From: Chloroflexota bacterium
GTDB lineage: Bacteria > Chloroflexota > Anaerolineae > UBA1429
DNA length: 64,000 nt
Assembly (NCBI GenBank): GCA_012729455.1
Contig: JAAYDC010000014.1
Coordinates: forward strand, 100,692 to 164,691
Direction: 5' to 3'
The notes under the pieces were generated by a model. That model did no database searches and was not told where the DNA came from. It saw only the letters and a list, made by a program, of their open reading frames with translations. The first letter of the stretch is position 1; each line of letters opens with the position of its first letter. This document shows positions 1,039-21,378 of this stretch, piece after piece. Position numbers and translations under genes: made by a program.

Positions 1039-1051
1039 ATTATCCCATCCT

Positions 1052-2911: not shown

Positions 2912-2912
2912 C

Positions 2913-3660: not shown

Positions 3661-4129
3661 TACCTTTTTATAGGCGGCTTACTCCTCAATGGAAGCCTTT
3701 CGGCTCACATCAGGTCTCCCTGATGCTTTGGCAGATCCTCACGTCTACAGCGCCGGTTACGTTGGGTTTTGCCAACTGAATGGCACACCCACCCCATCTT
3801 CGCACCTGCCTGGCCTTTCAGCAAGTACGAAAGGACCATATAGTTTTTTACACGGATAAATGTCTCTATCCGGGATTCCTGAAAAGGTAGAACCACCACC
3901 CTCCGGGTCTCGATTCTACAAGTCTCCAGCCATTTGTCAAGACTGTCAACATGATTTTAGCGCCGGAACGCTGCCCTCTTTCTGGAGAGCAAATTGTCTA
4001 AAGCCGTCCGCACAAAAGGGATAGATGAGAGGACGCGGTGTACGTTGCGCAAAGGACTCGCCAGCCGCCATGCGCGCATCCGCGCATACTGTCAGCACGG
4101 CGCCGTTGCGCGCCTTGCTCTCGCAGCGC

Positions 4130-7277: not shown

Positions 7278-7278
7278 A

Positions 7279-7488
7279 TCAGGATTCGTCAGGCGGCAGT
7301 ACCTGCAGTTGGGTAACCTTTAGTTCAGCCTTATCGAGCTCAGCCTCGCAATACTGTGAAATCCGAATGCCTTCTTCGTAGAGTGCCAGCATCTCTTCCA
7401 GAGGGTGCTGACTGCTATCCAGGGCTTGAACAATACTTTCCAGCCGGCGGTAACCCGCCTCAAAGCTCTCAATCTGCTTCTTTTTCAT
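7279..7488 (-). CDS. xseB: Exodeoxyribonuclease VII small subunit
   Basis: 69 aa MKKKQIESFEAGYRRLESIVQALDSSQHPLEEMLALYEEGIRISQYCEAELDKAELKVTQLQVLPPDES. Stop of xseA is 1 nt upstream. The rest of the 239-aa track ORF is antisense junk. Confidence 0.8.
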   Translation of the reverse strand: MKKKQIESFEAGYRRLESIVQALDSSQHPLEEMLALYEEGIRISQYCEAELDKAELKVTQLQVLPPDES

Positions 7489-7489
7489 A

Positions 7490-8698: not shown

Positions 8699-8769
8699 GG
8701 CACTATTATAGCACAGCCGCACCTGGCCCAACATAGTTGACACCTCCTCGGGCACGTGTTAAGATGAGC

Positions 8770-8789
8770 TTGTACGTACAACTGTACAG
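8770..8789. promoter_or_regulatory. Candidate GntR-family operator. A perfect 12-bp palindrome ttgtacgtacaa is immediately followed by the 8-bp palindrome ctgtacag, 9 nt upstream of the GntR start codon
   Basis: Read directly in the xseA/gntR divergent intergenic region. GT-N-AC palindromes are the known operator type for GntR/HutC regulators. Its position overlaps the RBS and leader, which suggests autoregulation of the downstream operon. Confidence 0.45.
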
Positions 8790-8797
8790 GTTGGCTG

Positions 8798-9550
8798 ATG
8801 ACCTTTCTCAGTGCTTTATCCGCCATCGATAAATCCAGCGCAGTGCCCTATTACTACCAGCTGGCCGAGATCCTGCGACGGCAACTGGATAGCCGCGCTT
8901 CACGCGGCGAGGTACTGCAGTTGCCTTCTGAAAACGAACTGTCCGAGCATTTTGTCCTCTCGCGCGCCACGGTGCGCCACGCGCTGGATATCCTCGAGAC
9001 CGAGGGCTGGATCTATCGCCAAAAGGGCAAGGGCGCCTTTGCGCCTTTCCGGCGCGTGCAGCATGAGCTCACACAGCTGGTCTCGACCACCGAAGACATG
9101 CAGCGGCGCGGCTGGCCGCTCGAGACGCGGCTGTTGAGTTGCGAGCTGCTGCCCTCTCCTGCCTATGCTGCCGATGCGCTCGAGATTGGCCAAGAGACGG
9201 CCATCTACCGCTTGGAGCGCCTGCGGCTGGTGGATGGCGAGCCGCTCAGCCTGCAGATTTCGCACCTGCCGGCCAGCTTGTGCCCGGGACTCGAACAGCA
9301 TGCCGAAGCCGGCTCGCTCTACCGCCTGTTGGAAGAGCGCTATGCACTAAAGCTGTGGAATGCCCAAGAAGTGCTGCGCGCACGCCCGGTTTCTCCGTAT
9401 GAGGCTGATCTGCTCGACGTGCGCGAAGGAGCTTGCACGCTCTATATAGAACGGGTAACGTATAACACAGAAGGAATCCCGGTCGAGTACCTGGAGTCTG
9501 TCTGGCGCGGCGACCGTTACGACTTTACCGTACATCTCACCCGCAGTTGA
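8798..9550 (+). CDS. GntR/HutC-family transcriptional regulator (winged HTH plus UTRA effector domain)
   Basis: 250 aa. HTH LPSENELSEHFVLSRATVRHALDILETEGWIYRQKGKGAF. C-terminal UTRA-like domain. Confidence 0.85.
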   Translation: MTFLSALSAIDKSSAVPYYYQLAEILRRQLDSRASRGEVLQLPSENELSEHFVLSRATVRHALDILETEGWIYRQKGKGAFAPFRRVQHELTQLVSTTEDMQRRGWPLETRLLSCELLPSPAYAADALEIGQETAIYRLERLRLVDGEPLSLQISHLPASLCPGLEQHAEAGSLYRLLEERYALKLWNAQEVLRARPVSPYEADLLDVREGACTLYIERVTYNTEGIPVEYLESVWRGDRYDFTVHLTRS

Positions 9551-9568
9551 GCGCCTGAAGGAGGAAAC

Positions 9569-10546
9569 ATGAAGTTTTCGGCCAACATCAACACCTTTAA
9601 TGCCTGTGCCGACCGCTATGTGCTGAGCGGATACGGCGAACGCCTCGATTCAGACGCGCTGATCCGAGCCGCTACCCAGGTGCCCGATCTGACGGGCGTA
9701 GAGCTGGTGGGCATGTGGCACGTCAATGACAACAATGTCGAGCAACTGCGCCGCCAACTGGCCGATGTTAACCTGGCGGTTACCTGCATCACACCCGATA
9801 TCTGGGCTTCCAGCAAGTGGGGCTGGGGGTCATTTACGTCGCCTGACCCAGCCATCCGCGCGGATGCCATCCGTGAGGTGCAAAAATCGATGGGCTGGGC
9901 CAAGCAGATGAACTGCGATATCGTCGATCTGTGGTTTGGGCAGGATGGCTACGACTATCCCATGCAGGGCGACTACCAGACCGCATGGGATCGGATCATC
10001 GAGGGCACCATCGCCTGCGCCGAATATATGCCGGATATCAATCTGGTGATCGAGTACAAGCCCAAGGAACCGCGCACGCACTGTTATATCTCCACGGTCG
10101 GCAAGACGCTCTTGCTGATCGACAAGGTCAACAAGCCCAACGTGGGCGCCATGATCGACGTCGGCCACACTCTCCAAGCCTACGAGGATGCCGCCGAATC
10201 GGCCGCGCTGCTGGATTACTTTGGTAAAAAGCTGATGTACATGCACTTTAACGATAACTGGCGCCTGTGGGATGACGACATGACCGCCGGTTCGGTGCAC
10301 ACCATCGAGCTGCTGGAACTGCTCTACTGGCTCGACCACATCGGTTATGACGGCTGGTATGCGCTCGACATCTTCCCTTACCGCGAGGATGGCATCCGCG
10401 CCGCCACTGAGAGCATCAAGTGGATCCAGGGCCTCTACGGGCTGCTCGACAAGATCGGGCGCGATAATATCACCTCTGCTATTGAGCAGGGTGATGCTAT
10501 GCAGGTATCCAGCCTGGTAAGAACCGCTTTACTGGGCAATTCATAA
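9569..10546 (+). CDS. Xylose-isomerase-like TIM-barrel sugar (phosphate) isomerase/epimerase
   Basis: 325 aa. GAAGGAGG RBS. TIM-barrel sugar isomerase signatures (EYKPKEP, DVGH, HFNDN). Confidence 0.8.
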   Translation: MKFSANINTFNACADRYVLSGYGERLDSDALIRAATQVPDLTGVELVGMWHVNDNNVEQLRRQLADVNLAVTCITPDIWASSKWGWGSFTSPDPAIRADAIREVQKSMGWAKQMNCDIVDLWFGQDGYDYPMQGDYQTAWDRIIEGTIACAEYMPDINLVIEYKPKEPRTHCYISTVGKTLLLIDKVNKPNVGAMIDVGHTLQAYEDAAESAALLDYFGKKLMYMHFNDNWRLWDDDMTAGSVHTIELLELLYWLDHIGYDGWYALDIFPYREDGIRAATESIKWIQGLYGLLDKIGRDNITSAIEQGDAMQVSSLVRTALLGNS

Positions 10547-10557
10547 ACGCTGGAGGA

Positions 10558-11913
10558 ATGATGACCAAGCAACTGTACGACCCGCATATGTTTAACTATA
10601 TGTGGGAAAGCCTCGACCGCGACCGTTTTGTAGTAGGCACCTACTATATCGAAGATACCCTGGAAGGGGTCGATTTTATCGACCACCTTATGCAGGTGCA
10701 GCGCCTGGCGCTAGAGGGCTCGACTGCCAGCTGGATGGAAGTAAAGGAAGAGACCCCTGAAGTGCGTGAACGCCTCTCGAGCAAGGTTCTGAACTATTTA
10801 GAGATCCCCGCGTCCAAGGGCACAAAAAAAGCCATTGTGCAGCTGGCCTTTCCCATCGCTGCCTGGGAAGAGAACGTCAACGTGCCGATGATGCTGCTCT
10901 CGATCATGGGCAACATCCCGGCATTTACCAACAAGATGCGTATGCTCGATCTGTATGTGCCGCCGACGGTAGCCGCTAAACTGGGCGGACCCAAGTTCGG
11001 CATCCCCGATCTGCGCGAAAAGCTGGGCGTCTACGACCGCCCGCTCATACTGCAGATCATCAAACCCAAGATGGGCATGTCGCCCCAGGAGACGGCCGAC
11101 CAGGTCTACCAGACCGCTCTGGGCGGGGCTGACCTGTGCAAAGACGACGAGATGTGCTCCGAGCTCTCCAACTCGCGTTTTGAAGACCGCCTCGAGGCCG
11201 TGTTAAAGGCACTCGACAAGGCCGAAAAAGAGACCGGTCACAAGACCCTCTACATGGTGAGCATCACCGACGAGGCCGACCGAGTGGTCGAAAAGGCACG
11301 CCGTGCGGTAAAGCTGGGCGCCACAGGCCTCCTGTATGCCTACTCGGCAGGGCTTTCGTCGCTTAAGACGATCGCCAACGACCCCGAGATCAATGTGCCG
11401 ATCCTGCTGCACGTCTCGCACATGATGGCGCTCTTGCCCTCGATGAACTTTCCGGTGCTTTCAAAGCTGTGCCGTATGTGCGGCGCCGACATGATGCTCA
11501 CGCCTTCGATCTGGTCGAGCATCCCGGTGGCCTCGGCCGAAGAGTGCGGCCGTGTGGCGCAGACCCTGCAGGCACCCTTTTATAATCTAAAGCCCACCTG
11601 GCCGATGCCCGCCGCGGGCATGTATCCCGGCCTGATCGACGTGCTGATCCAGGAAAACGGCTTAGACTTTATCGTTCCGGCGGGTGGTGGTATGCTGGGG
11701 CATCCGATGGGCTACAAGGCCGGGGCCATGGCCTGGCGCCAGGCAATCGACGCCGTCACCAAGGATGGCATCAGCCTGCAGGAAGCCGCTCGCAAATACA
11801 AGGAATTTGGCGCCGCCGCCGAGCTATGGGGCATTCGCACCCGCCCGGTGACGCCGTGGGGGTATTCCGGGCCGGATTACCACCCCAAGTTCGCGCCCAA
11901 GAACCTGGGTTGA
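10558..11913 (+). CDS. RuBisCO large-subunit-like protein (RLP, form IV-like)
   Basis: 451 aa. IKPKMGMS matches the IKPKLG motif (K175/K177 equivalents). GGADLCKDDE matches GGLDFTKDDE (carbamylated-Lys/Asp/Glu metal site). PAGGGMLGHPMG matches the GG phosphate-binding loop. No small-subunit gene nearby. Confidence 0.8.
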   Translation: MMTKQLYDPHMFNYMWESLDRDRFVVGTYYIEDTLEGVDFIDHLMQVQRLALEGSTASWMEVKEETPEVRERLSSKVLNYLEIPASKGTKKAIVQLAFPIAAWEENVNVPMMLLSIMGNIPAFTNKMRMLDLYVPPTVAAKLGGPKFGIPDLREKLGVYDRPLILQIIKPKMGMSPQETADQVYQTALGGADLCKDDEMCSELSNSRFEDRLEAVLKALDKAEKETGHKTLYMVSITDEADRVVEKARRAVKLGATGLLYAYSAGLSSLKTIANDPEINVPILLHVSHMMALLPSMNFPVLSKLCRMCGADMMLTPSIWSSIPVASAEECGRVAQTLQAPFYNLKPTWPMPAAGMYPGLIDVLIQENGLDFIVPAGGGMLGHPMGYKAGAMAWRQAIDAVTKDGISLQEAARKYKEFGAAAELWGIRTRPVTPWGYSGPDYHPKFAPKNLG

Positions 11914-11979
11914 TCGCGTTTTATAACTGGTGCGCCCGCCGTATTGGGGCGCACCAGCATGTTCGTTAAGGGAGCGTGT

Positions 11980-12948
11980 ATGTCAGAGTTTTCATTGCTG
12001 GATATGTACCGCAAAATGCTGCTGATCCGCCGCTTTGAGGAGCGCTGCAACGAGCTGTATATGCAGGGGCGCATCCCATCGACGCTGCACCTCTACATCG
12101 GCCAGGAGGCTGTGGCAGTGGGCGCCTGTGCGCCATTGACGGATGCCGACTATCTTTTTAGTACCCATCGTCCGCACGGCCACGCCCTGGCCAAGGGCGT
12201 CAGCCCACGCTCGATCATGGCAGAGCTCTTTGCCAAGGTCACAGGCTGCTGCAAGGGCAAGGGCGGCTCGATGCACGTCGGTGATATGCGCGTCGGCATG
12301 TTCCCGGCTGTGGCGATCGTGGGAGCCAACATCCCGCTGGCGGCTGGCGCTGCCCTGGCGGCCAAGCGCCTGAACGACGGACGCGTGACAGCCTGCTTTT
12401 TCGGCGACGGAGCCGCCAACGAAGGCGCCTTCCATGAAGGCTTGAATATGGCGGCGATCTGGAAGCTGCCTGTAGTATATTTCTGCGAAAACAACCTCTA
12501 CGCCGCTTCCACGCCTTTCAGCACGGCGTTCAACATCAAGCAGGTGGCCGACCGCGCTGCCAGCTATGGCATCCCCGGGATCGTGGTGGATGGCTATGAC
12601 GTCGAGAGTGTGGCTGAGGTAGCTGAGGAAGCCTACAATCGCGCGCGCCGCGGCGACGGCCCCACTCTGGTGGAATGCATGACCTACCGCCTGTGCGGGC
12701 ATTCGCGCAGCGACCCGCGCACCTACCGCACCAAGGAAGAAGAGGCCGAGTGGCAAGCGCGTGACGTGATCCCAACTACCGCCTCGCGGCTGCTTGATCG
12801 CGGCCTGGCTACGCAGGAGCGCATCGACCAGTTCGAAGCGGAAGTCAAAGCCGAGATCGACGACGCGGTGCAGTTTGCCGAAGAGAGTCCTTATCCCGAA
12901 CCGCACGAACTGATGGAAGATATCTTTGCGCCGGAGGCTGCCCTATGA
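11980..12948 (+). CDS. TPP-dependent 2-oxoacid/acetoin dehydrogenase E1 alpha subunit
   Basis: TPP motif GDGAANEG...NN. High similarity to the PdhA/AcoA family. Start chosen at MSEF after the AAGGGAG RBS. Confidence 0.85.
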   Translation: MSEFSLLDMYRKMLLIRRFEERCNELYMQGRIPSTLHLYIGQEAVAVGACAPLTDADYLFSTHRPHGHALAKGVSPRSIMAELFAKVTGCCKGKGGSMHVGDMRVGMFPAVAIVGANIPLAAGAALAAKRLNDGRVTACFFGDGAANEGAFHEGLNMAAIWKLPVVYFCENNLYAASTPFSTAFNIKQVADRAASYGIPGIVVDGYDVESVAEVAEEAYNRARRGDGPTLVECMTYRLCGHSRSDPRTYRTKEEEAEWQARDVIPTTASRLLDRGLATQERIDQFEAEVKAEIDDAVQFAEESPYPEPHELMEDIFAPEAAL

Positions 12949-13958
12949 GCCAGATGAGTATTGCCCAAGCCCTGCGCCAGGCGATCCGCGAAGAGATGCT
13001 GCGCGACGAGCGCGTCTATTGCATCGGTGAGGATATCGGCGTCCCGGGCGGTTTTGGCGGCGCATTTACCGTCACGCTCGGGCTTTCGGACGAGTTCGGC
13101 CGCGAGCGCATCCTGGATACCCCCATTTCCGAGATCGGCCTGGCGGGCGTGGCGATCGGTTCGGCTTGTGCCGGCATGCGCCCGATCGCTGACGTGCAGT
13201 ATGGCGACTTTTTGTTCTGTATGATGGACCAGCTGGCCAACCAGGCGGCCAAGATGCGCTACATGTCGGGCGGCACGATCAAGGTACCGATGGTGATGCG
13301 CGCACCGGTGGGCTCGACAAGCCGCGGCGCTCAGCACGCCCAGAGCCTAGAGGCGTTTTTCACGCACATCCCTGGGTTAAAGGTCGTGGCGCCCGCCACC
13401 GCCTACGACGCCAAGGGACTGCTCAAGGCTGCCGTGCGCGATGATAACCCCGTGATCGTCTTTGAGCACAAGCTGCTGTATGGCAGCAAGGGTCCGCGTT
13501 CCGAGCGCGGCGCGCTCAGCCCGATCGGCGAGGTGCCGGATGACGACTATATCGTGCCGATTGGCAAGGGCATCATCCGCCGCAAGGGCAAAGATGTCAC
13601 CATCGTCGGCAAGCTGTTGACGCTTTACCGCGCCCTGGGAGCCGCCGATGAGCTTGCCAAAGAAGGCATCGAGGCCGAGGTGATCGACCCGCGCACCCTT
13701 GTTCCGCTGGATAAAGACCTGATCCTCGAATCGGTGCGCAAGACCGGCCGGCTGGTGATCGTCGAGGAAGATAACCTCACCGGCGGATGGGCCGGCGATA
13801 TTGCCGCCATCGTGGCCGAAGAGGCTTTCTACTGGCTGGACACGCCCATCAAACGCCTCTCGGCACCAGATGCGCCCGCGCCCTTTGCGCCAGTGCTCGA
13901 ACAGCTGTATGTTCCCAGCGTCGCAAACGTCGTGCAGGCCGTCAAGAGCCTCTTTTAG
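12945..13958 (+). CDS. 2-oxoacid/acetoin dehydrogenase E1 beta subunit (transketolase-like)
   Basis: 337 aa. PdhB/AcoB-like throughout. ATGA overlap with E1 alpha. Confidence 0.9.
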   Translation: MSQMSIAQALRQAIREEMLRDERVYCIGEDIGVPGGFGGAFTVTLGLSDEFGRERILDTPISEIGLAGVAIGSACAGMRPIADVQYGDFLFCMMDQLANQAAKMRYMSGGTIKVPMVMRAPVGSTSRGAQHAQSLEAFFTHIPGLKVVAPATAYDAKGLLKAAVRDDNPVIVFEHKLLYGSKGPRSERGALSPIGEVPDDDYIVPIGKGIIRRKGKDVTIVGKLLTLYRALGAADELAKEGIEAEVIDPRTLVPLDKDLILESVRKTGRLVIVEEDNLTGGWAGDIAAIVAEEAFYWLDTPIKRLSAPDAPAPFAPVLEQLYVPSVANVVQAVKSLF

Positions 13959-13969
13959 GGAGTGGTGAA

Positions 13970-15019
13970 ATGCCCAAGCAAGTGTTGGTGCCACCCCTCG
14001 GGACGACTGTCGATACCATCACGCTGGTCGAGTGGCTCAAACAGCCCGGCGAAGCCGTAACGCACGGCGAGCCGTTATTTGTGATCGAGACCGACAAGGC
14101 TAACCTGGATGTCGAGGCGCCCGCCACGGGCATTCTCACCCAGGTGAGCGCACAACCCGGTGACGAGTTGACCGCCCTGACGGTGATCGCGCTGATCGCC
14201 GAAGAGGGCGAGGCGCCGAAGACTCCTGCTCCTGCTACGGCATCCGCGCCCGCAGCCGAACCCGCGGAGGTTCAAGCCCCCGTTGCCAAGCCCGAACCGG
14301 CTGCCGCGGTATCTTCCAGTGCCCCAATCTGCCGTGAAAGGGTGTTCATTTCGCCGCGCGCCAGACGCCTGGCTGAGGCGCATAATGTGCCGATCGCAGG
14401 GCTGGTGGCAACCGGACCCGAGGGCGCCATCATCGAGCGGGATGTGCGCGCCTGGCTGGAGGCACATCCTGCGAGCATGCCGGCTGCGCCCGCTCAGACC
14501 GCTGTGTCAGCGCGTTATACGCTGCAGGCTGAGTTCGACCCGGCCGAATTGCTGGATTGGCAAGACGCCTTGCGTACCTCCAAGCGTCAACCCAGTATCC
14601 TGCAGGTGGTGTTGCTGACCGCCCTGAGAATGCTGGCGGCCGAACCGCTTAACGCGCCGGATGGCAGCGAACTGGGCCTGGCTATGGCTGAACTGAGCGA
14701 CACAGGCCTGCGCTACCGGCCGCTGCCGCTCGCGAGCGCCCTGAATATGGCAAGGCTGCAAAAAGTTTTAGAGACCGAGCCTCAGGAGGCATTTTCGCAG
14801 GGGATCGCCCTGCTGGATGCCGGCGCACTGGGGCTGGATGTGCTGACGCCGAGCGATGCGAGCGTGCCCATGATCAGCATCGGCCGCGTGCGGCGTGGGC
14901 GCCCCGCCTGGCTGAGCGTGAGTGCTGATCCGAGCGCGTTGAGTGCACTGCAGGCAGCCAGCTGGTTGGCACGGCTTGTCAACCTGCTGGATGATCCGCA
15001 GCAGGTATTAGCAATCTAA
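13970..15019 (+). CDS. E2-like lipoyl protein. Has a lipoyl domain, a peripheral-subunit-binding domain and a degenerate acyltransferase domain lacking the catalytic His
   Basis: Lipoyl motif IETDKANLDVEAP. PSBD RARRLAEAHNVPIAGLVATGPEGAIIERDV. Where E2 enzymes have ...SxDHRxxDGA the sequence reads LSVSADPSALSALQAAS, so His, Arg and Asp-Gly are lost. Start at ATG 13970 after the AGGGAGTGG RBS; the track ORF start at 13787 overlaps E1 beta and is rejected. Confidence 0.7.
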   Translation: MPKQVLVPPLGTTVDTITLVEWLKQPGEAVTHGEPLFVIETDKANLDVEAPATGILTQVSAQPGDELTALTVIALIAEEGEAPKTPAPATASAPAAEPAEVQAPVAKPEPAAAVSSSAPICRERVFISPRARRLAEAHNVPIAGLVATGPEGAIIERDVRAWLEAHPASMPAAPAQTAVSARYTLQAEFDPAELLDWQDALRTSKRQPSILQVVLLTALRMLAAEPLNAPDGSELGLAMAELSDTGLRYRPLPLASALNMARLQKVLETEPQEAFSQGIALLDAGALGLDVLTPSDASVPMISIGRVRRGRPAWLSVSADPSALSALQAASWLARLVNLLDDPQQVLAI

Positions 15020-15034
15020 CAAGGAGAAGGAATC

Positions 15035-16522
15035 ATGGCAGATTCACTGGCGATGCTGGCATTTGACCTGGGGGCCGAAAGCGGACGTGCAATCATTGGT
15101 ACGCTTGCCGACGACAAGCTTAACCTGCAGGAAGTGCACCGTTTTGCCAACCGGCCGATCTGCCTGCCGGATGGCCTGCACTGGGATAGCCTGCACCTTT
15201 TTGCCGAAATCCTGACGGGGTTGAGTAAAGCCGCCGCGGTCGAGGGAGTCGAGATTGCCTCGATCGGCCTGGATACCTGGGGGGTCGATTTTGCCCTGCT
15301 GGATAGCGCCGGCTCGCTTCTGGGGCTGCCCTTTCACTATCGGGATTCCCGAACCGACGGCATGCTCGAGGCTGCCTTTGCCAGGGTGCCGCGCGAAGAG
15401 ATCTTTGCCGTCACGGGCATCCAGTTCATGCAGATCAGCACGCTCTACCAGCTGCTGGCGATGGCCATAGCCGATTCGCCCGCGCTGCGCGTCGCCAGCC
15501 ATCTGCTGACGATCCCCGACCTGCTCAATTACTGGCTCTCGGGGGTGATGGTCAACGAGTTCACCAACGCCACCACCACGCAGTGCTATAACCCGATCAC
15601 CGGCACCTGGGCTAAAGAGATGCTCGAGCGCATGGGGATCCCCTCGCACATCTTTGGCAAGGTAGTGCAGCCAGGCACAGTCATTGGCAGCCTGCGTGCC
15701 GACCTGGCCGAAGCCGCCGGACTGGCACCCATGCCGATCATCGCGCCGGCCTGCCACGACACCGGTTCGGCCGTCGCCGCGGTACCCAGCGCCGAACAGA
15801 ACTTTGCCTGGATCAGTTCGGGCACCTGGTCGATCATGGGCGTGGAATGGCCGGAGGCGCTCGTCAACGAGCAAAGCCTAGCATTCAACATCACCAACGA
15901 GGGCGGCATCGACGGCACCTGGCGCGTCTCCAAGAACATCATGGGGCTGTGGCTGGTGCAGGAAGCTCGCCGCACCTGGGGCCAGGAAGACGGCGTCACT
16001 GCCAGCTATGACGAGCTGGCCAAACTGGCCGCCGCGGCCGAGCCCTTTACCTCTGTAATCGACGTAGACGACGACACCTTCCTGCCGCCCGGCGACATGC
16101 CCGCGCGCGTGCGTGCCTATTGCAAGCGCACCGGCCAGCATGTACCAGAAGATAAGAGCCAGGTGATGCGTTGCATCTATGAAGGATTGGCATTAAAGTA
16201 CCGCTGGGTGCTCGAGCACATCGAAAAGATGCTCGGAACCCGCTTTGATGCGATCAACATCGTAGGCGGCGGTACCCAAGCCGAGATCCTTTCACAGTTT
16301 ACCGCCGATTGCACCGGCCGCACGGTGGTAACAGGCCCCGTCGAGGCCACTGCCATAGGCAACCTGCTGATGCAGGCACGCGCCCTTGGCAGGCTTTCAT
16401 CCAAAGAAGAGATGCGCGCGATCGTGCGCAACTCGACCGAACTGAACACCTACCAGCCGCGCTCGGACGCGCGCTGGGATGCGGCTCTGGCCAAACTGAA
16501 TGAACTGATCGCCAAATGTTAA
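15035..16522 (+). CDS. FGGY-family sugar kinase, rhamnulokinase-like
   Basis: 495 aa. RhaB-like blocks DLGAESGR, GLDTWGVDFALLD, YRDSRT, NATTTQ, ITNEGG, KNIMGLWL, VEATAIGN. Confidence 0.85.
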   Translation: MADSLAMLAFDLGAESGRAIIGTLADDKLNLQEVHRFANRPICLPDGLHWDSLHLFAEILTGLSKAAAVEGVEIASIGLDTWGVDFALLDSAGSLLGLPFHYRDSRTDGMLEAAFARVPREEIFAVTGIQFMQISTLYQLLAMAIADSPALRVASHLLTIPDLLNYWLSGVMVNEFTNATTTQCYNPITGTWAKEMLERMGIPSHIFGKVVQPGTVIGSLRADLAEAAGLAPMPIIAPACHDTGSAVAAVPSAEQNFAWISSGTWSIMGVEWPEALVNEQSLAFNITNEGGIDGTWRVSKNIMGLWLVQEARRTWGQEDGVTASYDELAKLAAAAEPFTSVIDVDDDTFLPPGDMPARVRAYCKRTGQHVPEDKSQVMRCIYEGLALKYRWVLEHIEKMLGTRFDAINIVGGGTQAEILSQFTADCTGRTVVTGPVEATAIGNLLMQARALGRLSSKEEMRAIVRNSTELNTYQPRSDARWDAALAKLNELIAKC

Positions 16523-17155
16523 CACCTGCAGGAGGCTACCTAGCAGTTAATCTGCGCAATTACGTGTTTCCGGATCATCTGCAGCCAAAGCATTCGGCCT
16601 TTTTAGGCTCTGTGGCACGCTGCTTTATGCCGCTGCCCGGTGGTGATGCCCCGCTGTGAACCGAGATTTTACCGGGGATCGAGATCACACGCATCACCGA
16701 TATAGCGCTGAAATCGACGTGTGTGCAGCCTAAAGAAATTCAGCAGCTTTAAAAATCGGACGCATGATCGGTACTTTGGTCGCCGTCATACAGGTGACCG
16801 TCTGGAGGGTATGCACTTTAGCGGTGCAAGAGCTCACCCGTACAACTGCCACGGCTGGGCTCCCAACGTGTGGCGGAGCGAGTGTGACGTACAACGGCGT
16901 GTAACCGGAACCGTGGTTGGCACGATGTATCATCCAAGCTTTGATGACCGCAAACTGCTTGTAGCGGCCAGGTGCAGCTTGCAGGGCGCGCTCCGGGGCT
17001 GATCATGCCATCGCCGTCGACCCGGTACAGCCCAGCGTGGGCGATGTGGTGCTGGGGCTCGATGAGAACGGCAGTGCCTGCACACTCACGGATATCGAAC
17101 CCGGCGGGGCGGTGCGCCCCGTTATAATTGGAATTGCGGACGAGGTGCAACTGAC

Positions 17156-17899
17156 ATGAGCTACATCTGTTCGGAGAAAGAGACTGCCCTGCGTGAGCAG
17201 ATCGTGCGCGTGGGCAAGCTGATGTATGGCCACGGCCTGATCGTGGGTGTCGACGGCAACATCTCGGCACGCCTCAGCAAAGACCGCATCCTGGTCACGC
17301 CCTCGGGCTTGTGCAAGGGGTTGATGAGTGTCGAACAGGTAATCGTGGTGGACCTAGAGGGCCGCAAAGTTGACAGCACCTCAGAAGCTAACCCCAATCT
17401 GCGCCCCACCAGCGAGACGCGCATGCACCTGGAAGTCTACCGCCAGCGCGACGATGTGGGCGGGGTGGTGCACGCCCATCCGGCTACCGCCATCGCGCTG
17501 AGTATCGCCGGTATTCCTCTGGCCGACCGCATGGTCCCCGAGGCGATTGTCAACCTCGGCCTGGTGCCCACCACCGAATATGCCACCCCCGCCAGCGAAG
17601 AAAACGTATACGCCATCCGCGGGCTGATCTCGGGACACGACGGCATCATCCTGCGCCGTCACGGCACACTCACAGTGGGCAAGGATCCCTGGCAGGCCTT
17701 TGTGCGCACCGAATTCCTCGCGCAGGTGGCGCGCATCACCCTGATACTGCACCAGCTTGGCGCGGGCGAACCGATCCCGGCCGAAGAGGTGCGCAAGCTG
17801 CTGGCACAGCGCAAGGCTTTTGGCTTTATGCGTCCTGGCGAGCTGAAAGAGTTCGCCGATATCTATGGCACCAGCTTTGACGATCAGGCTGGCAAGTAA
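17156..17899 (+). CDS. Class II aldolase/adducin-family protein (fuculose/rhamnulose-1-phosphate aldolase or related epimerase/decarboxylase)
   Basis: 247 aa. GNISAR, TPSG, HLEVY, VVHAHP motifs typical of the FucA/AraD/MtnB class II family. Confidence 0.85.
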   Translation: MSYICSEKETALREQIVRVGKLMYGHGLIVGVDGNISARLSKDRILVTPSGLCKGLMSVEQVIVVDLEGRKVDSTSEANPNLRPTSETRMHLEVYRQRDDVGGVVHAHPATAIALSIAGIPLADRMVPEAIVNLGLVPTTEYATPASEENVYAIRGLISGHDGIILRRHGTLTVGKDPWQAFVRTEFLAQVARITLILHQLGAGEPIPAEEVRKLLAQRKAFGFMRPGELKEFADIYGTSFDDQAGK

Positions 17900-17994
17900 C
17901 AGCCGGCTGAGCCCGAAACATTCGATGAGCAAGCCCCAGTGACCGCCATCACCGAGCAGATGATGTAACAGTCAAGTGGCGATAGGAGGATAAC

Positions 17995-18759
17995 ATGATC
18001 CTTGATATGTTCAGCTTGCAGGATAAAGTAGCCCTCGTGACGGGCGCCAGCCGCGGCTTGGGGCAGGGCATCGCTCTGGGTTTGGCGGAGGCCGGCGCCG
18101 ATATCGCCGGCGTGTCGCGCGGCAGCACCGCCGAGACCAAAGTGCAGGTCACTGCCCTGGGGCGGCGCTACCTGGCGCTAAAGTGCGACCTCAGCCAGGC
18201 CAGTGTGGCAGAGCTGTATGACCTGGTCGAGCAGACGGTTTCCGCGTTGGGGCATATCGATATCCTAGTGAATGCCGCCGGCATTAACCATCGCACCGCC
18301 TCGCTCGAGTTCGCCGAAGAGGATTGGGACCGCGTTTTACAGGTCAACTTGAAGAGCGCCATGTACCTCTCGCAAGCAGCCGCGCGCCGTTTTGCCGAAC
18401 AGGGCAAGGGCAAGATCATCAGTGTAGCATCGGCGATGAGCTTTCAGGGCGGGTACATCATCCCGGCCTACACAGCGGCCAAGCACGGCATTCTGGGAAT
18501 GACAAAGGCACTCGGTAACGAGTTTGCATCGCTGGGGATCAATGTCAACGCTATCGCCCCGGGTTATATGGACACCGACATGACCGCTGCGCTGATTGCC
18601 GACCCCAACCGCGGCCCTGCCATCAGCCAGCGCATCCCCGCTGGCCGCTGGGGCACCCCGCAAGACCTGCAGGGCGCGGCCGTGTTTCTAGCGTCAGCTG
18701 CCTCGGATTATTGCCACGGGAGCGTGGTGGTGGTGGATGGCGGTTGGCTGAACCGCTAG
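17995..18759 (+). CDS. SDR-family oxidoreductase (KduD / 2-deoxy-D-gluconate 3-dehydrogenase-like)
   Basis: 254 aa. TGASRGLG cofactor loop. YTAAK catalytic motif. AGGAGG RBS. Confidence 0.85.
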   Translation: MILDMFSLQDKVALVTGASRGLGQGIALGLAEAGADIAGVSRGSTAETKVQVTALGRRYLALKCDLSQASVAELYDLVEQTVSALGHIDILVNAAGINHRTASLEFAEEDWDRVLQVNLKSAMYLSQAAARRFAEQGKGKIISVASAMSFQGGYIIPAYTAAKHGILGMTKALGNEFASLGINVNAIAPGYMDTDMTAALIADPNRGPAISQRIPAGRWGTPQDLQGAAVFLASAASDYCHGSVVVVDGGWLNR

Positions 18760-20985: not shown

Positions 20986-21378
20986 TTAGGATAGCACTTC
21001 TGCGGCGATGTCGCGGCTGGCGATGATATCCACGCCGCTGCCGAGGATATCCGCCACCACCACCTGGCCCTGCGCGACGGGCGCCTGCAGCGTCACGCTG
21101 CGCAACACCTCGGCGGCACGCAGCAGCATCGCCTTGGGCAACGGCCTTTCTGAGCGCACCGGTGAACGCCTGAGCACACCCCCCTTGAGCGCGACGGTGG
21201 CGGTGAGCATGCGGCGCGGATCCAGCAGCTCTTCACGGGCAAAGGCGACGCCGCGCTTGCAGGCTTGTCCGCGCGCATCACAGACCTCGCCGTTTTCTAC
21301 AGTCGCCTGCACAGTGCAGCCCATCGGGCAAGTGACACATATAATCTCGCGTGTTTCCGCCATGCTCAACTCTCCCAC
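20986..21378 (-). CDS. DUF1667 family CxxC protein
   Basis: 130 aa with CVTCPMGC. Position and size match the conserved third gene of GlpA-like/oxidoreductase/DUF1667 trios. Confidence 0.75.
   Translation of the reverse strand: MGELSMAETREIICVTCPMGCTVQATVENGEVCDARGQACKRGVAFAREELLDPRRMLTATVALKGGVLRRSPVRSERPLPKAMLLRAAEVLRSVTLQAPVAQGQVVVADILGSGVDIIASRDIAAEVLS

What the first reader, a model, noticed from the sequence alone, without database searches (positions are those of the whole stretch)
8770..18759. Candidate undescribed sugar-catabolic pathway: an RLP, a TPP-dependent E1 alpha/beta pair and a dead lipoyl E2 embedded in a rhamnulokinase/aldolase/isomerase locus
Nine co-directional genes run with short gaps or ATGA overlaps behind a GntR/UTRA regulator. 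They are: a xylose-isomerase-like TIM-barrel enzyme, a RuBisCO-like protein, an acetoin/pyruvate-dehydrogenase-type E1 alpha, an E1 beta, a lipoyl E2 with a degenerate catalytic domain, a rhamnulokinase-like FGGY kinase, a class II aldolase and an SDR. Kinase, class II aldolase and isomerase resemble the rhamnose/fucose, erythritol/tetrulose or 5-deoxy-pentose (DHAP-shunt) logic. RLPs are known as enolases or isomerases in methionine salvage, where they also pair with a class II aldolase-family enzyme. They are also known as decarboxylase or transcarboxylase enzymes in D-apiose and tetronate catabolism. I am not aware of any described pathway that couples an RLP to a lipoyl-dependent C2-cleaving (acetoin-dehydrogenase-like) module. 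One hypothesis, strictly inference: the isomerase, kinase and RLP generate a 1-deoxy- or branched ketose phosphate. The E1 alpha/beta then cleaves its C2-C3 bond onto the lipoyl arm, analogous to acetoin cleavage or a transketolase half-reaction. The aldolase and SDR handle the remaining fragment.
Basis: partly seen in the sequence, partly recalled or inferred. Interest (0 to 1): 0.85.

Follow-up and report, generated by a model that had tools for sequence, protein, structure and literature searches.

The report
RuBisCO-like protein operon with PDH-type E1/E2
An uncultured Chloroflexota (Anaerolineae) bacterium carries a widely conserved but undescribed sugar-breakdown operon that pairs a non-carbon-fixing RuBisCO relative with a pyruvate-dehydrogenase-like enzyme pair, probably a new way to split deoxy-sugars such as rhamnose or fucose.

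Summary
The core unit is GntR / xylose-isomerase-like TIM barrel (XI-TIM) / RuBisCO-like protein (RLP) / E1 alpha / E1 beta / E2 / rhamnulokinase-like FGGY kinase. It recurs in more than 70 related loci, mostly Anaerolineae. E1 lies just downstream of the RLP in 52 of 57 informative loci. XI-TIM lies within 3 kb upstream in 57 of 68.

The RLP belongs to a distinct clade. It keeps RuBisCO's enolisation and Mg residues. It lacks the carboxylation lysine and the catalytic lysine of the methionine-salvage enolase MtnW. Public annotation as MtnW is therefore wrong.

The "dead" E2 is real. About 31 relatives have an intact E2, and a sub-family of at least 17 protein clusters lacks the catalytic His.

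The class II aldolase and the SDR do not belong to the core. They end a microcompartment (BMC) module that is intact in three relatives and reduced here to a 633-nt deletion scar.

Accessory genes in related loci point to 6-deoxyhexoses: rhaM, RhaA, FucI, rhamnosidase, fucosidase, and pairs of an LsrF-like thiolase with an SDR.

Best model (inference, about 0.35): isomerase and kinase make a deoxy-ketose-1-phosphate, the RLP moves the carbonyl, and E1/E2 cleaves it oxidatively to triose phosphate plus acyl-CoA. I found no description of this in the literature.

The parts
8737..8765 (+). Sigma-70-like promoter (TTGACA, 17 nt, TAAGAT, with extended TG) upstream of the regulator gene
   Evidence: 10 of 12 matches. 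It is the only strong + strand site ahead of the cluster. This is a consensus match only.
8769..8782 (.). Candidate GntR/HutC-type operator, the palindrome CTTGTACGTACAAC
   Evidence: Related motifs (CTTGTAnnnACAAGTAnACAAG) lie upstream of the orthologous GntR gene in most of 54 loci. It occurs at a single place in the 64-kb window, against 0.22 expected. There is no second site before the aldolase or the SDR.
8798..9550 (+). GntR-family regulator with a UTRA effector domain (HutC subfamily)
   Evidence: Pfam GntR 45.9 bits and UTRA 132.5 bits. No NCBIfam equivalog cut-off is met. It is conserved at the head of the cluster.
9569..10546 (+). Xylose-isomerase-like TIM-barrel enzyme (XI-TIM), probably a two-metal aldose-ketose isomerase
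   Evidence: PF01261, 104 bits. Closest solved structure is 3ktc, 'xylose isomerase', E 5e-61. Alignment to Thermus and Arthrobacter xylose isomerases keeps the KPxEPR motif and the counterparts of both metal sites, with Asp in place of the Glu that precedes the conserved His (xylose-isomerase residue identities recalled from memory, read onto). It lies within 3 kb upstream of the RLP in 57 of 68 informative loci.
10558..11913 (+). RuBisCO-like protein (form IV) of a distinct clade; the signature gene of the system
   Evidence: Pfam RuBisCO_large_N and RuBisCO_large. It scores below every NCBIfam cut-off: MtnW 274 against 409, form III 217 against 497, OiaX 133 against 700. Nearest structures are MtnW 2zvi/2oek. 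In 61 family members the counterparts of E60, W66, N123, K175, K177, K201, D203, E204, H294 and the GGG phosphate loop are invariant. R295, H327, K334 and the MtnW lysine are absent.
11980..12948 (+). TPP-dependent E1 alpha subunit (PDH / acetoin-dehydrogenase type)
   Evidence: PF00676, 314 bits. TIGR03182 PDH_E1_alph_y scores 389.2 against a cut-off of 393.85. Best solved structure is human PDH E1 alpha, E 2e-66. The GDG...NN TPP motif and the YRLCGHSRSDP loop are present. The start at 11980 agrees with the public gene call.
12945..13958 (+). E1 beta subunit
   Evidence: Transket_pyr + Transketolase_C. PRK09212 scores 355 against 321. Its start overlaps the E1 alpha stop by 4 nt. It is the best conserved gene of the cluster after the RLP (dN 0.053 against L001).
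13970..15019 (+). E2-like lipoyl protein: lipoyl domain, E3-binding domain and a shortened core domain without the catalytic His
   Evidence: Biotin_lipoyl and E3_binding only; no PF00198 hit. ADPSALSA replaces FDHRLVDG. Identity to L001 is 75% in the lipoyl domain, 70% in the E3-binding domain and 36% in the core. It belongs to a His-less sub-family of at least 17 protein clusters.
15035..16522 (+). FGGY kinase of the rhamnulokinase/fuculokinase type
   Evidence: TIGR02627 rhamnulokinase scores 491.8 against 527.95. The only close solved structures are E. coli RhaB (E 2e-100) and S. pneumoniae FucK (E 4e-95). A homologue is present in 20 of 37 loci with at least 7 kb downstream of the RLP.
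16516..17153 (+). Deletion scar of a microcompartment (BMC) module: pseudogene remains of the first shell gene (CsoS1D_N-type) and of the two last BMC-P genes
   Evidence: tblastx against L001 matches window 16516-16731 to the start of the first BMC gene (with an in-frame stop), 16749-16793 to a BMC-P start, and 16925-17153 to the last BMC-P (frameshifted). The intact module is seen in L001, L133 and L137.
17156..17899 (+). Class II aldolase (FucA/RhaD family) with a C-terminal extension; signature enzyme of the lost BMC module, not of the RLP core
   Evidence: PF00596, 154 bits. No equivalog cut-off is met. Orthologues at 81-85% identity occur only in L001, L133 and L137, always as the last gene of the BMC block.
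17995..18759 (+). SDR oxidoreductase that scores as KduD; follows the aldolase in the closest relatives only
   Evidence: TIGR01832 scores 340.9 against 338.85. The same position is occupied in L001, L133 and L137. It is absent from that position in other RLP loci.

Best explanation
**What it is.** This is a catabolic operon for a deoxy-sugar. The most likely substrates are the 6-deoxyhexoses L-rhamnose and/or L-fucose. 5-deoxy-D-ribose and 5-methylthioribose are not excluded.

**Proposed steps (all inferred).**
1. The XI-like two-metal isomerase converts the aldose to the 2-ketose.
2. The RhaB/FucK-like kinase phosphorylates C1.
3. The RLP uses RuBisCO's Mg/carbamate enolisation machinery to move the carbonyl from C2 towards the deoxy end. 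The R. rubrum RLP does this with 5-methylthioribulose-1-P. The product is an alpha-hydroxyketone whose phosphate end can leave as an aldehyde.
4. The PDH/acetoin-dehydrogenase-type E1 alpha/beta attacks that carbonyl with TPP. It releases a triose phosphate (glyceraldehyde-3-P) and passes the remaining C3 or C2 unit oxidatively to the lipoyl arm.
5. In most relatives E2 hands the unit to CoA, giving lactyl-CoA from 6-deoxyhexoses or acetyl-CoA from a 5-deoxypentose. An E3 encoded elsewhere reoxidises the lipoate.

**Net effect.** The route yields the same products as aldolase plus acylating aldehyde dehydrogenase, but never frees a toxic aldehyde. It would therefore need no microcompartment.

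**This window's lineage.** The E2 core has lost its catalytic His, so the last step must differ here. The neighbouring aldolase/BMC branch has been partly deleted.

**Shown and inferred.** Shown: gene content, conservation, active-site residues, E2 states, the BMC scar and the operator. Inferred: the substrate, the regiochemistry of the RLP and E1 steps, and the products.
For: 1. **Coupling.** E1 lies directly downstream of the RLP in 52 of 57 loci. XI-TIM lies within 3 kb upstream in 57 of 68. The kinase is present in 20 of 37 loci with enough sequence. RLP-E2-E1 adjacency persists at about 50% RLP identity in other phyla (L055, L058, L062, L064). The reciprocal search starting from XI-TIM recovers the RLP in 23 metagenome loci, against about six in which contig sequence was available beside XI-TIM but no RLP was found (my count).
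2. **RLP chemistry.** The counterparts of K175, K177, K201, D203, E204, H294, N123, E60 and the P1 phosphate loop are invariant in 61 sequences. The P2-site and CO2-addition residues (R295, H327, K334) are missing. This fits enolisation of a mono-phosphorylated 2-keto-3-hydroxy sugar.
3. **Kinase.** Its only close solved relatives are RhaB and FucK, and it nearly reaches the rhamnulokinase equivalog score.
4. **XI-TIM.** It keeps both xylose-isomerase metal sites.
5. **E2.** About 31 relatives have an intact E2 with FDHRLVDG, so acyl-CoA is the normal end product.
6. **Alternative modules in the same loci** (the first two have chemistry that gives triose-P plus an acyl/acid unit from a ketose-1-P; the third has no aldehyde-oxidising partner):
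   - class II aldolase + AldDH/BMC (L001, L133, L137) or + AFOR (L080);
   - LsrF-like thiolase (NF006081, 330.9 against 297) + SDR in 8 loci, including L012, which has XI-TIM, RLP and kinase but no E1/E2;
   - FBA-II aldolase with or without PfkB.
7. **6-deoxyhexose context.** rhaM, a GH78 rhamnosidase, RhaA, FucI and a GH29 fucosidase occur nearby.
8. **Anaerobic setting.** The window also encodes a ferredoxin-type 2-oxoacid oxidoreductase, which argues against the E1/E2 being a housekeeping PDH.
9. **Precedents from established knowledge (recalled, not re-read).** The R. rubrum RLP shifts a carbonyl from C2 to C4 (Imker et al. 2008). Acetoin dehydrogenase E1 cleaves an alpha-hydroxyketone onto lipoate.
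Against: - No biochemical or expression data exist, and all loci come from uncultured organisms.
- No E3 or lipoate-ligase gene lies in the cluster.
- E1 alpha and beta score almost as ordinary PDH E1, so a sugar-phosphate substrate is not indicated by sequence.
- E2 is missing after E1 beta in at least 6 loci and lacks the catalytic His in a whole sub-family that includes this window. Acyl transfer to CoA by E2 is therefore not universal.
- Aldolases of three unrelated families recur inside or beside the cluster. L136 has PfkB, FBA-II, E1 and E2 with no RLP in the 10 kb held upstream. E1/E2 might therefore act after an aldolase.
- Four loci carry RhaA as well as XI-TIM, so XI-TIM may not be the rhamnose isomerase.
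- URO-D/corrinoid methyltransferase and MetE-like genes inside several clusters hint at methylthio or methyl chemistry that the model does not explain.
- GntR, XI-TIM and RLP occur without E1/E2 in L002, L006, L030 and L041.
Confidence: 0.35

Rival explanations
1. Aldolase-dependent route. Isomerase, kinase and an aldolase (class II, FBA-II or DeoC/LacD type, often encoded elsewhere) split the ketose-1-P into DHAP and an aldehyde such as lactaldehyde. E1/E2 then acts as a TPP/lipoyl-dependent acylating aldehyde oxidiser, or acts on an acyloin made from the aldehyde. The RLP only epimerises or isomerises ketose-1-phosphates so that one aldolase can take several sugars.
For: - Three non-homologous aldolase families recur in or next to the cluster.
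- In L039 and L079 the FBA-II gene lies between the RLP and E1. L136 has PfkB, FBA-II, E1 and E2 with no RLP in the 10 kb held upstream.
- In this window's lineage the RLP/E1/E2 genes and the aldolase/BMC genes lie about 20 nt apart on one strand, probably forming one operon.
Against: - Only about a fifth to a quarter of the loci show any aldolase, while RLP-E1 adjacency is 91%.
- Where an aldolase is present it usually comes with its own aldehyde oxidiser: AldDH in the BMC, or AFOR in L080. E1/E2 would then be redundant.
- Oxidation of free aldehydes by an E1/E2 system has no well-established precedent.
- The model gives no reason for the tight RLP-E1 linkage.
Confidence: 0.2
2. Salvage or catabolism of S-adenosylmethionine by-products, using the same mechanism as the best explanation. 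5-methylthioribose or 5-deoxyribose is isomerised and phosphorylated. The RLP converts it to 1-methylthio-xylulose-5-P or 1-deoxyxylulose-5-P, as in the R. rubrum MTA-isoprenoid shunt. E1/E2 cleaves this to glyceraldehyde-3-P plus (methylthio)acetyl-CoA or acetyl-CoA. Corrinoid methyltransferases recover the methyl group.
For: - The RLP's nearest characterised relatives all act in methylthio-sugar metabolism.
- URO-D/MtaA-like genes are the most frequent accessory family (8 of 117 neighbours). They lie inside the cluster in L014, L040 (fused to B12-binding domains), L056, L057 and L135. A MetE-like gene sits between the RLP and E1 in L076.
- The LsrF-like thiolase passes the equivalog cut-off for the C5 substrate, which yields acetyl-CoA + DHAP.
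- E1/E2 look like acetyl-handling PDH components.
- 5-deoxy-D-ribulose shares the 3R,4R configuration of L-fuculose (established stereochemistry).
Against: - No MtnK, MtnA, MtnP or MtnN genes and no SAM or cobalamin riboswitch were found.
- The context is rich in rhamnose and fucose genes: rhaM, RhaA, FucI, GH78, GH29 and sugar ABC transporters.
- URO-D paralogues may simply be abundant in these genomes. I did not measure their background frequency.
Confidence: 0.15
3. The E1/E2 genes encode an ordinary pyruvate (or 2-oxoacid) dehydrogenase that merely extends a rhamnose/fucose regulon (lactaldehyde to lactate to pyruvate to acetyl-CoA). The RLP has an unrelated or auxiliary role.
For: - E1 alpha scores 389.2 against 393.85, and E1 beta passes the PDH subfamily cut-off.
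- Lactate-oxidising genes are known members of some rhamnose regulons (PMC3870299).
Against: - No lactaldehyde or lactate dehydrogenase is consistently present.
- RLP-E1 adjacency survives wide divergence and rearrangement.
- A His-less E2 sub-family and E2-less clusters are hard to reconcile with a central PDH.
- The organism is an anaerobe with ferredoxin-type oxoacid oxidoreductases.
Confidence: 0.1
4. Chance juxtaposition of unrelated genes, with public annotation correct in calling the RLP the methionine-salvage enolase MtnW.
For: JGI names the homologues '2,3-diketo-5-methylthiopentyl-1-phosphate enolase'.
Against: - The same order recurs in more than 70 loci.
- MtnW model cut-offs are missed: 274 against 409, and 230 against 514.
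- In the alignment Asn sits where MtnW has Lys. That this Lys is MtnW's catalytic base is recalled, not re-read.
- No other mtn genes are nearby.
Confidence: 0.03

Closest known systems
Rhodospirillum rubrum RLP ('DeepYkr'), the 5-methylthio-D-ribulose-1-phosphate isomerase of the MTA-isoprenoid shunt (from memory: Imker et al. 2008; Erb et al. 2012)
   Same: Both are form IV RuBisCO homologues without carboxylase residues. The R. rubrum enzyme acts on a ketose-1-phosphate with a non-hydroxylated far end and moves the carbonyl from C2 to C4. The reaction proposed here is of the same type.
   Different: R. rubrum RLP did not appear among the 60 listed PDB matches, so bona fide RuBisCOs score higher than it does. 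The partners differ: an XI-like isomerase and an FGGY kinase instead of MtnK/MtnA upstream, and a PDH-type E1/E2 instead of a cupin methylsulfurylase downstream.
MtnW/YkrW, the 2,3-diketo-5-methylthiopentyl-1-phosphate enolase (Bacillus, Geobacillus)
   Same: These are the closest solved structures (2zvi E 2e-62, 2oek E 7e-59). Both share the Lys/Asp/Glu metal site and the GADxxLxPS and GGG(I/M)HGHP-type motifs.
   Different: Scores fall below both MtnW equivalog cut-offs. The family keeps RuBisCO's KPK motif, and has Asn at the position where the alignment puts a Lys in MtnW. I take that Lys to be MtnW's catalytic base from memory of Imker et al. 2007. No mtnK, A, B, X or D genes are nearby.
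Acetoin dehydrogenase complex (AcoA/AcoB/AcoC/AcoL) and PDH complexes
   Same: Both have a heterotetramer-type E1 alpha/beta with a TPP motif and an E2 with lipoyl and E3-binding domains. The proposed chemistry, cleavage of an alpha-hydroxyketone with transfer of the acyl unit to lipoate, is that of acetoin cleavage.
   Different: The genes are embedded in a sugar operon next to an RLP, an isomerase and a sugar kinase. No E3 gene is present. The E2 is intact, His-less or absent depending on lineage. The proposed substrate is a sugar phosphate, which has not been shown for any complex of this type.
Phosphorylated L-rhamnose/L-fucose pathways (RhaA or RhaI, RhaB, RhaD or RhaEW; FucI, FucK, FucA) and the PVM/PVM-like microcompartment (PMC3870299; PMC8217296)
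   Same: Both have an isomerase and a RhaB/FucK-like kinase. Related loci carry rhaM, RhaA, FucI, rhamnosidase and fucosidase. The closest relatives carry a class II aldolase with AldDH, BMC-H, BMC-T and three BMC-P genes.
   Different: The published reconstruction of rhamnose pathways contains no RLP or E1/E2. Here the RLP/E1/E2 genes are the conserved part and the aldolase is optional. In this window the BMC genes are deleted.
Lsr processing of autoinducer-2 (LsrK kinase, LsrG isomerase, LsrF thiolase)
   Same: The logic is the same: an FGGY kinase, then a carbonyl-shifting isomerase, then C-C cleavage giving a triose phosphate plus acyl-CoA. An LsrF-like protein that passes NF006081 (330.9 against 297) sits in 8 related loci.
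   Different: There is no LsrG, LsrB or LsrR. The kinase is RhaB-like (75 bits to the LsrK model). An LsrF-like gene is absent from this window. The isomerase would be an RLP.
D-apiose catabolic pathways (from memory: Carter et al. 2018; the paper could not be read here)
   Same: They are precedent for RLPs in sugar catabolism and for TPP-dependent (transketolase) cleavage of a ketose phosphate made by an XI-like isomerase and a kinase. A 38%-identical XI-TIM homologue on a Rhizobium plasmid sits with a split transketolase, an FGGY kinase and TpiA. L077 has the same XI-TIM + split transketolase pairing.
   Different: The RLP scores 133 against 700 for OiaX. The Rhizobium kinase is GlpK-like and only 25% identical to the window's. 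The apiose pathways have no E1/E2.
E3-binding protein (protein X) of eukaryotic PDH
   Same: Both combine a lipoyl domain, an E3-binding domain and a catalytically inactive acyltransferase-like core. The His-less E2 of this window and of at least 16 further clusters has this layout.
   Different: It is bacterial and is the only E2-like gene in the operon. E3BP always accompanies an active E2. Whether an active E2 is encoded elsewhere is unknown.

Membership tests
Bona fide RuBisCO (forms I-III) | Carboxylation residues K334, H327, R295 and S379 (spinach numbering), and a score above the form III / large-subunit model cut-offs | tested here: not met
   The counterparts read S, L, V/P and A/G/S in the family. 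rubisco_III scores 217 against 497.45, and PRK04208 scores 218.5 against 438.
RuBisCO superfamily, form IV (RLP) | RuBisCO large-subunit N- and C-terminal domains, with the K201/D203/E204 metal site, but without the full carboxylase set | tested here: met
   PF02788 48.5 bits and PF00016 154 bits. KDDE is invariant in 61 sequences.
MtnW (DK-MTP-1-P enolase) | Equivalog score; catalytic Lys at the RuBisCO N123 position; mtn gene neighbourhood | tested here: not met
   PRK09549 scores 274.5 against 409, and TIGR03332 scores 229.9 against 513.6. Asn is invariant at that position (GNI against MtnW's GKL); that this Lys is MtnW's catalytic base is recalled, not re-read. No mtn genes appear in the loci whose neighbours were Pfam-annotated or among the 117 neighbour ORFs scanned.
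OiaX/OiaC apiose-pathway RLPs | Equivalog score for NF042437 | tested here: not met
   132.9 against 700.
PDH E1 (heterotetrameric) | E1 alpha and beta equivalog or subfamily scores, and the TPP motif | tested here: inconclusive
   Alpha: TIGR03182 scores 389.2 against 393.85, just below. Beta: PRK09212 subfamily scores 355.4 against 321, met, while the PRK11892 equivalog scores 362.7 against 454, not met. The GDG...NN motif is present. Substrate specificity cannot be read from these scores.
Dihydrolipoamide acyltransferase (E2) | Lipoyl-lysine motif, E3/E1-binding domain, and a 2-oxoacid_dh catalytic domain with DHRxxDG | tested here: not met
   Lipoyl ETDKA and PF02817 are present. There is no PF00198 hit and His is replaced (ADPSALSA). 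The feature is met in about 31 related loci.
Rhamnulokinase RhaB | TIGR02627 equivalog score | tested here: inconclusive
   491.8 against 527.95, and PRK10640 441 against 639. The best solved structures are RhaB and FucK. It is RhaB-like, but the substrate is unproven.
Xylose-isomerase-type two-metal aldose-ketose isomerases | Metal-1 and metal-2 ligands and the KPxEPR lysine (residue identities recalled from the xylose-isomerase literature) | tested here: met
   The alignment to 1bxb and 4xia shows IEYKPKEPR, DVGH, FNDN, WDDDM and LD counterparts. No equivalog cut-off is met, so the sugar is unknown.
KduD (2-dehydro-3-deoxy-D-gluconate 5-dehydrogenase), for the terminal SDR | TIGR01832 equivalog score | tested here: met
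   340.9 against 338.85, a marginal pass. No KduI is nearby. In relatives it follows the BMC aldolase, so its role there may differ.
PVM/PVM-like bacterial microcompartment | Class II aldolase signature enzyme, acylating AldDH, BMC-H, BMC-T and a triplet of BMC-P genes (PMC8217296) | tested here: not met
   The window keeps only the aldolase and pseudogene fragments. The full set is present in L001, L133 and L137. Assignment to a BMC subtype was not tested.
LsrF thiolase, as an accessory in related loci | NF006081 equivalog score | tested here: met
   The L078 protein scores 330.9 against 297. Orthologues occur in L004, L012, L027, L035, L036, L044 and L111. None is in the window.

The most novel reading that the evidence does not exclude
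A previously unknown way to break down deoxy-sugars. An RLP 'walks' the carbonyl of a deoxy-ketose-1-phosphate away from the phosphate end. A 2-oxoacid-dehydrogenase-type E1/E2 then cleaves a sugar phosphate directly into glyceraldehyde-3-phosphate and lactyl-CoA or acetyl-CoA. This would be the first PDH/acetoin-type complex shown to act on a sugar phosphate and a new catalytic role for the RuBisCO superfamily. It would also be an aldehyde-free alternative to the aldolase/microcompartment route. In part of the family a His-less, E3BP-like bacterial E2 would serve only as a lipoyl carrier.
Probability: 0.33. Interest if true: 0.85.

Novelty: new variant of a known kind. Interest (0 to 1): 0.72.

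Why it matters
- **RLP functions are scarce.** Only a handful have been assigned, and each revealed new chemistry and informed ideas on how RuBisCO arose.
- **This clade is unusual.** It keeps almost the whole enolisation apparatus of true RuBisCO. It is abundant in Anaerolineae from digesters, sediments and soils: more than 120 protein clusters at 69% identity or above. It is currently mis-annotated as MtnW.
- **If the model holds**, it adds a new branch to rhamnose/fucose (or SAM by-product) catabolism in a major group of anaerobic polysaccharide degraders. It would extend the substrate range of lipoyl-dependent dehydrogenase complexes to sugar phosphates.
- **It offers a comparison with microcompartments.** In these same genomes a BMC appears to solve the same problem, keeping a toxic aldehyde contained.
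- **The His-less E2 sub-family** would be a bacterial counterpart of eukaryotic E3BP.

Tried and rejected
- **Literature.** Ten searches found nothing that describes an RLP + E1/E2 cluster: RuBisCO-like with rhamnulokinase, rhamnose, acetoin dehydrogenase, Anaerolineae/form IV, or lipoyl; rhamnulose + RuBisCO; all RLP papers since 2019; apulose + transketolase; LsrF + rhamnose. An eleventh query (RuBisCO-like + lipoyl, kinase, isomerase) was rejected for a too-short term and returned nothing. Papers read for leads held nothing relevant. Carter 2018 and Erb 2012 are not held, so statements about them rest on memory.
- **Riboswitches.** There were no Rfam hits in window 7000-20000, nor in eight related loci.
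- **A second operator** in front of the aldolase or SDR: none found.
- **Terminators inside the cluster.** The scan found two weak terminator-like matches on the + strand (10199, 10657), both inside coding sequence, and the total was no more than chance (6 found against 7.1 expected).
- **'The dead E2 is a one-off decay.'** I held this view. I rejected it after one search showed a diversified His-less sub-family with conserved core positions.
- **dN/dS for the E2 core.** dS is saturated (above 1), so omega values are unreliable. Only relative dN and identity are used.
- **Finding what replaces E1/E2 in RLP-only loci** (L002, L006, L030, L041): only unrelated genes follow.
- **Pfam scan of 138 neighbours** failed on the size limit and was repeated with 117.

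Full report
**Observation**

The region 8798-18759 holds nine co-directional ORFs.

| Coordinates | Gene |
|---|---|
| 8798-9550 | GntR/UTRA regulator |
| 9569-10546 | xylose-isomerase-like TIM barrel (XI-TIM) |
| 10558-11913 | RuBisCO-like protein (RLP) |
| 11980-12948 | E1 alpha |
| 12945-13958 | E1 beta, 4-nt overlap with E1 alpha |
| 13970-15019 | E2-like protein |
| 15035-16522 | FGGY kinase |
| 17156-17899 | class II aldolase |
| 17995-18759 | SDR |

- Gaps from GntR to the kinase are 11-66 nt.
- A promoter-like site (8737-8765) and a palindrome, CTTGTACGTACAAC (8769-8782), precede GntR. Related palindromes precede the orthologous regulator in most of 54 loci. The motif occurs at only one place in the 64-kb window, against 0.22 expected.
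- The source is a Chloroflexota MAG. The identical RLP is on public contigs named 'Chloroflexi bacterium'.
- Upstream lie exonuclease VII genes. Downstream on the other strand lies a TPR protein. The boundaries are therefore clear.

**Correction to the anatomy**

- The 633 nt between the kinase and the aldolase is not an ordinary spacer. tblastx against the closest relative L001 (RLP 92% identical) shows three remnants: the start of a first shell gene with an in-frame stop, the first 15 codons of a BMC-P gene, and a frameshifted last BMC-P gene.
- L001, L133 and L137 share the window's flanks. Between kinase and aldolase they carry an intact block: a CsoS1D_N-type BMC-T, BMC-H, BMC-P, aldehyde dehydrogenase, a second BMC protein, two more BMC-P genes, then the class II aldolase and the same SDR. 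The block starts about 20 nt after the kinase.
- The aldolase and SDR are therefore the tail of a microcompartment module that this genome has largely deleted. Across all other RLP loci they are not conserved. The SDR marginally passes the KduD equivalog.

**Conservation of the core**

- A scan of one genome per species found 72 loci. A reciprocal metagenome scan with XI-TIM found 50 more.
- Counts among 77 loci with an RLP at 60% identity or above:

| Test | Result |
|---|---|
| XI-TIM within 3 kb upstream of the RLP | 57 of 68 informative loci |
| E1 alpha/beta directly downstream | 52 of 57 |
| Rhamnulokinase-like kinase present (loci with at least 7 kb downstream) | 20 of 37 |

- At about 50% RLP identity, MAGs labelled Spirochaetota, Victivallales and Rhodospirillales keep RLP-E2-E1 alpha-E1 beta, in a different order.
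- Starting from XI-TIM, 23 metagenome loci have the RLP beside it. About six others had contig sequence available beside XI-TIM but no RLP (my count).
- A few genomes have only GntR, XI-TIM and RLP, followed by unrelated genes (L002, L006, L030, L041).
- The family is large. The top 120 protein clusters are at 69% identity or above, and almost all come from metagenomes. JGI calls them MtnW.

**The RLP**

- It scores below every curated cut-off: MtnW 274 against 409, form III 217 against 497, OiaX 133 against 700.
- Its nearest structures are MtnW enolases, followed closely by form III RuBisCO and the Chlorobium RLP.
- In an alignment of 61 family members, the counterparts of E60, W66, N123, K175, K177, K201, D203, E204, H294 and the GGG phosphate loop are invariant.
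- R295, H327, K334 and S379 are replaced. The position where MtnW carries its catalytic lysine is Asn, as in true RuBisCO.
- This is the apparatus for binding Mg and a C1 phosphate and for enolising a 2-keto-3-hydroxy sugar. It lacks a second phosphate site and the means to add CO2.
- It is not MtnW, OiaX or a carboxylase.

**The partners**

- XI-TIM resembles the uncharacterised 3ktc (E 5e-61). It keeps the KPxEPR motif and both metal sites of xylose isomerase. It is most likely an aldose-ketose isomerase.
- The kinase has only E. coli RhaB and S. pneumoniae FucK as close solved relatives. It nearly reaches the rhamnulokinase equivalog score.
- E1 alpha/beta are PDH/acetoin-type, with TPP motifs.
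- The window also encodes ferredoxin-type oxoacid oxidoreductase, NuoF-like and RACo proteins. The organism is an anaerobe in which a housekeeping PDH would be unusual.
- No E3 gene lies in the cluster.

**The E2**

- In about 31 loci, E1 beta is followed by a full E2 with the FDHRLVDG catalytic motif. In at least 6 loci the kinase follows E1 beta directly.
- The window's protein keeps the lipoyl-lysine motif and the E3-binding domain. It has a shortened core without the catalytic His and gives no PF00198 hit.
- Against L001 the lipoyl domain is 75% identical, the E3-binding domain 70% and the core 36%. The RLP and E1 beta are 91-92% identical.
- A search with this protein showed it is not an isolated decay. 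At least 17 of the 31 closest protein clusters lack the His (ADSAKI, ADIRQMDG, YNPAHT, INRRLV, FDPRLVGS and others), yet share conserved core positions.
- So there is a bacterial, E3BP-like, His-less E2 sub-family. How the acyl group leaves the lipoate in these lineages is unexplained.

**Accessory genes and what they imply**

- *6-deoxyhexose genes.* Neighbours include rhaM, a GH78 rhamnosidase, RhaA, FucI, a GH29 fucosidase and sugar ABC transporters.
- *Cleaving modules.* Three kinds sit beside the same isomerase and kinase genes:
  - class II aldolase with BMC/AldDH, or with an aldehyde:ferredoxin oxidoreductase (L080);
  - FBA-II aldolase, with or without a PfkB kinase (L038, L039, L079, L085, L095, L136);
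  - an LsrF-like thiolase that passes its equivalog cut-off, paired with a 358-aa SDR, in 8 loci.
- The aldolase + aldehyde-oxidiser pairs and the thiolase + SDR pair would each turn a ketose-1-phosphate into a triose phosphate plus an acyl or acid unit. The FBA-II genes come without an aldehyde-oxidising partner.
- L012 has XI-TIM, RLP, kinase, LsrF-like thiolase and SDR but no E1/E2.
- L116 has XI-TIM, kinase, a divergent second RLP and a DeoC-family gene.
- *Unexplained.* URO-D/MtaA-like methyltransferase genes (one fused to B12-binding domains) and a MetE-like gene lie inside several clusters.

**Mechanism (inference)**

- RhaB-type kinases place the phosphate next to the carbonyl. A TPP enzyme that attacked that carbonyl would produce a useless phosphoglycolyl unit.
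- An RLP that moves the carbonyl from C2 to C4 creates an alpha-hydroxyketone. The R. rubrum RLP does this with methylthioribulose-1-P (recalled from the literature). E1 can then cleave between C3 and C4.
- The phosphate end would leave as glyceraldehyde-3-P. The deoxy end would stay on TPP, be oxidised onto lipoate and pass to CoA.
- The product would be lactyl-CoA from rhamnulose- or fuculose-1-P, acetyl-CoA from 5-deoxyribulose-1-P via 1-deoxyxylulose-5-P, or methylthioacetyl-CoA from methylthioribulose-1-P.
- SDR plus LsrF-like thiolase would reach the same products through a 2,4-dione.
- Aldolase plus AldDH inside a BMC would reach them through free lactaldehyde.
- The model explains the tight RLP-E1 linkage, the kinase type, the intact E2 in most lineages and the interchangeable modules.
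- It does not explain the His-less or absent E2, the URO-D genes, RhaA co-occurring with XI-TIM, or L136 (PfkB, FBA-II, E1, E2 with no RLP in the 10 kb held upstream).
- L136 keeps alive the rival in which E1/E2 acts after an aldolase.
- I put the model at about 0.35.

**Comparison, novelty and verdict**

- Each part belongs to a known family. The logic resembles acetoin cleavage, the Lsr pathway and the R. rubrum shunt.
- The published reconstruction of rhamnose pathways contains no RLP or E1/E2. No searchable paper links an RLP to a lipoyl-dependent complex.
- Precedents for sugar-linked TPP modules exist on rhizobial plasmids. One has an XI-TIM homologue with a split transketolase, FGGY kinase and TpiA. 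Another has an E1/E2/E3 set with a sugar kinase and a transporter. Both lack an RLP.
- I rate the finding a new variant of a known kind. It is a real, conserved and apparently undescribed RLP-centred pathway, with the mechanism still to be shown.

Noticed in passing
window 16516-17153: Pseudogene scar of a microcompartment locus. About 3.1 kb has been lost relative to L001, L133 and L137: BMC-H, BMC-P, AldDH, a second BMC protein, and most of a CsoS1D_N-type shell gene. Stops and a frameshift mark the remains.
   Followed up: yes
L001 11208-15999; L133 12729-17520; L137 10347-15112: In the closest relatives the RLP/E1/E2/kinase genes and a complete PVM-like BMC module lie about 20 nt apart on one strand. 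This suggests a 16-gene operon that combines both routes. No PduL-type phosphotransacylase was seen in the block.
   Followed up: partly
P0121-P0148, P0177, P0224 (alignment A3); loci L001, L004, L133-L137: A diversified sub-family of bacterial E2-like proteins lacks the catalytic His but keeps the lipoyl domain, the E3-binding domain and conserved core positions (E3BP-like). It is always found next to orthologues of this E1.
   Followed up: partly
L040 4674-6482; L056 2715-3995; L014 4878-5969; L057 11679-12770; L135 1339-2562; L076 11399-12460; L088 3356-6954: URO-D/MtaA-like methyltransferase genes (one fused to B12-binding domains) and a MetE-like gene are inserted inside or beside RLP clusters. 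They could point to methylthio- or O-methyl-sugar chemistry. The background frequency of such paralogues is unknown.
   Followed up: partly
L078 15252-16040 and 7842-8918; also L004, L012, L027, L035, L036, L044, L111: An LsrF-like thiolase (above the NCBIfam equivalog cut-off) is paired with a 358-aa SDR in 8 RLP loci. L012 has this pair with XI-TIM, RLP and kinase but no E1/E2.
   Followed up: partly
L116 2502-4714: A second, very divergent RLP (RuBisCO_large, only 58 bits) follows XI-TIM and the kinase. A DeoC/LacD-family gene and a GH127 glycosidase come after it.
   Followed up: no
L082 (Rhizobium plasmid NZ_CP104990) 8989-14096; L077 5254-8208: A 38%-identical XI-TIM homologue is clustered with a split transketolase, a GlpK-like FGGY kinase and TpiA. 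This resembles the transketolase route for D-apiose as I recall it. The same XI-TIM + split transketolase pairing occurs in the Anaerolineae locus L077.
   Followed up: partly
L081 (Sinorhizobium americanum plasmid A) 314-13762: The closest plasmid-borne E1 alpha (53% identity) lies in an uncharacterised sugar cluster. It contains a sugar kinase, an ABC transporter, an 'NAD(P)H-dependent oxidoreductase', E1 alpha, E1 beta, E2 and LpdA.
   Followed up: no
window 20986-25629, minus strand: Glycerol-type cluster: FGGY kinase (24088-25629), a DAO/BFD flavoprotein (22640-24205), a Pyr_redox_2 protein (21366-22643) and DUF1667. It looks like an anaerobic glycerol-3-phosphate dehydrogenase set.
   Followed up: no
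window 1-4000: GC content is 0.475-0.50 here, against about 0.60 in the rest of the window. The stretch includes a NuoF-like FMN/FeS subunit gene (1052-2911, minus strand).
   Followed up: no
window 47316-49115 and 52698-54527: A ferredoxin-type 2-oxoacid oxidoreductase subunit and a RACo corrinoid reductive activase. They indicate an anaerobe with corrinoid methyltransferase systems.
   Followed up: no
RLP homologues P0003-P0120: JGI/IMG annotates this RLP family as '2,3-diketo-5-methylthiopentyl-1-phosphate enolase'. Model scores and the active-site residue argue that this is a systematic mis-annotation.
   Followed up: yes
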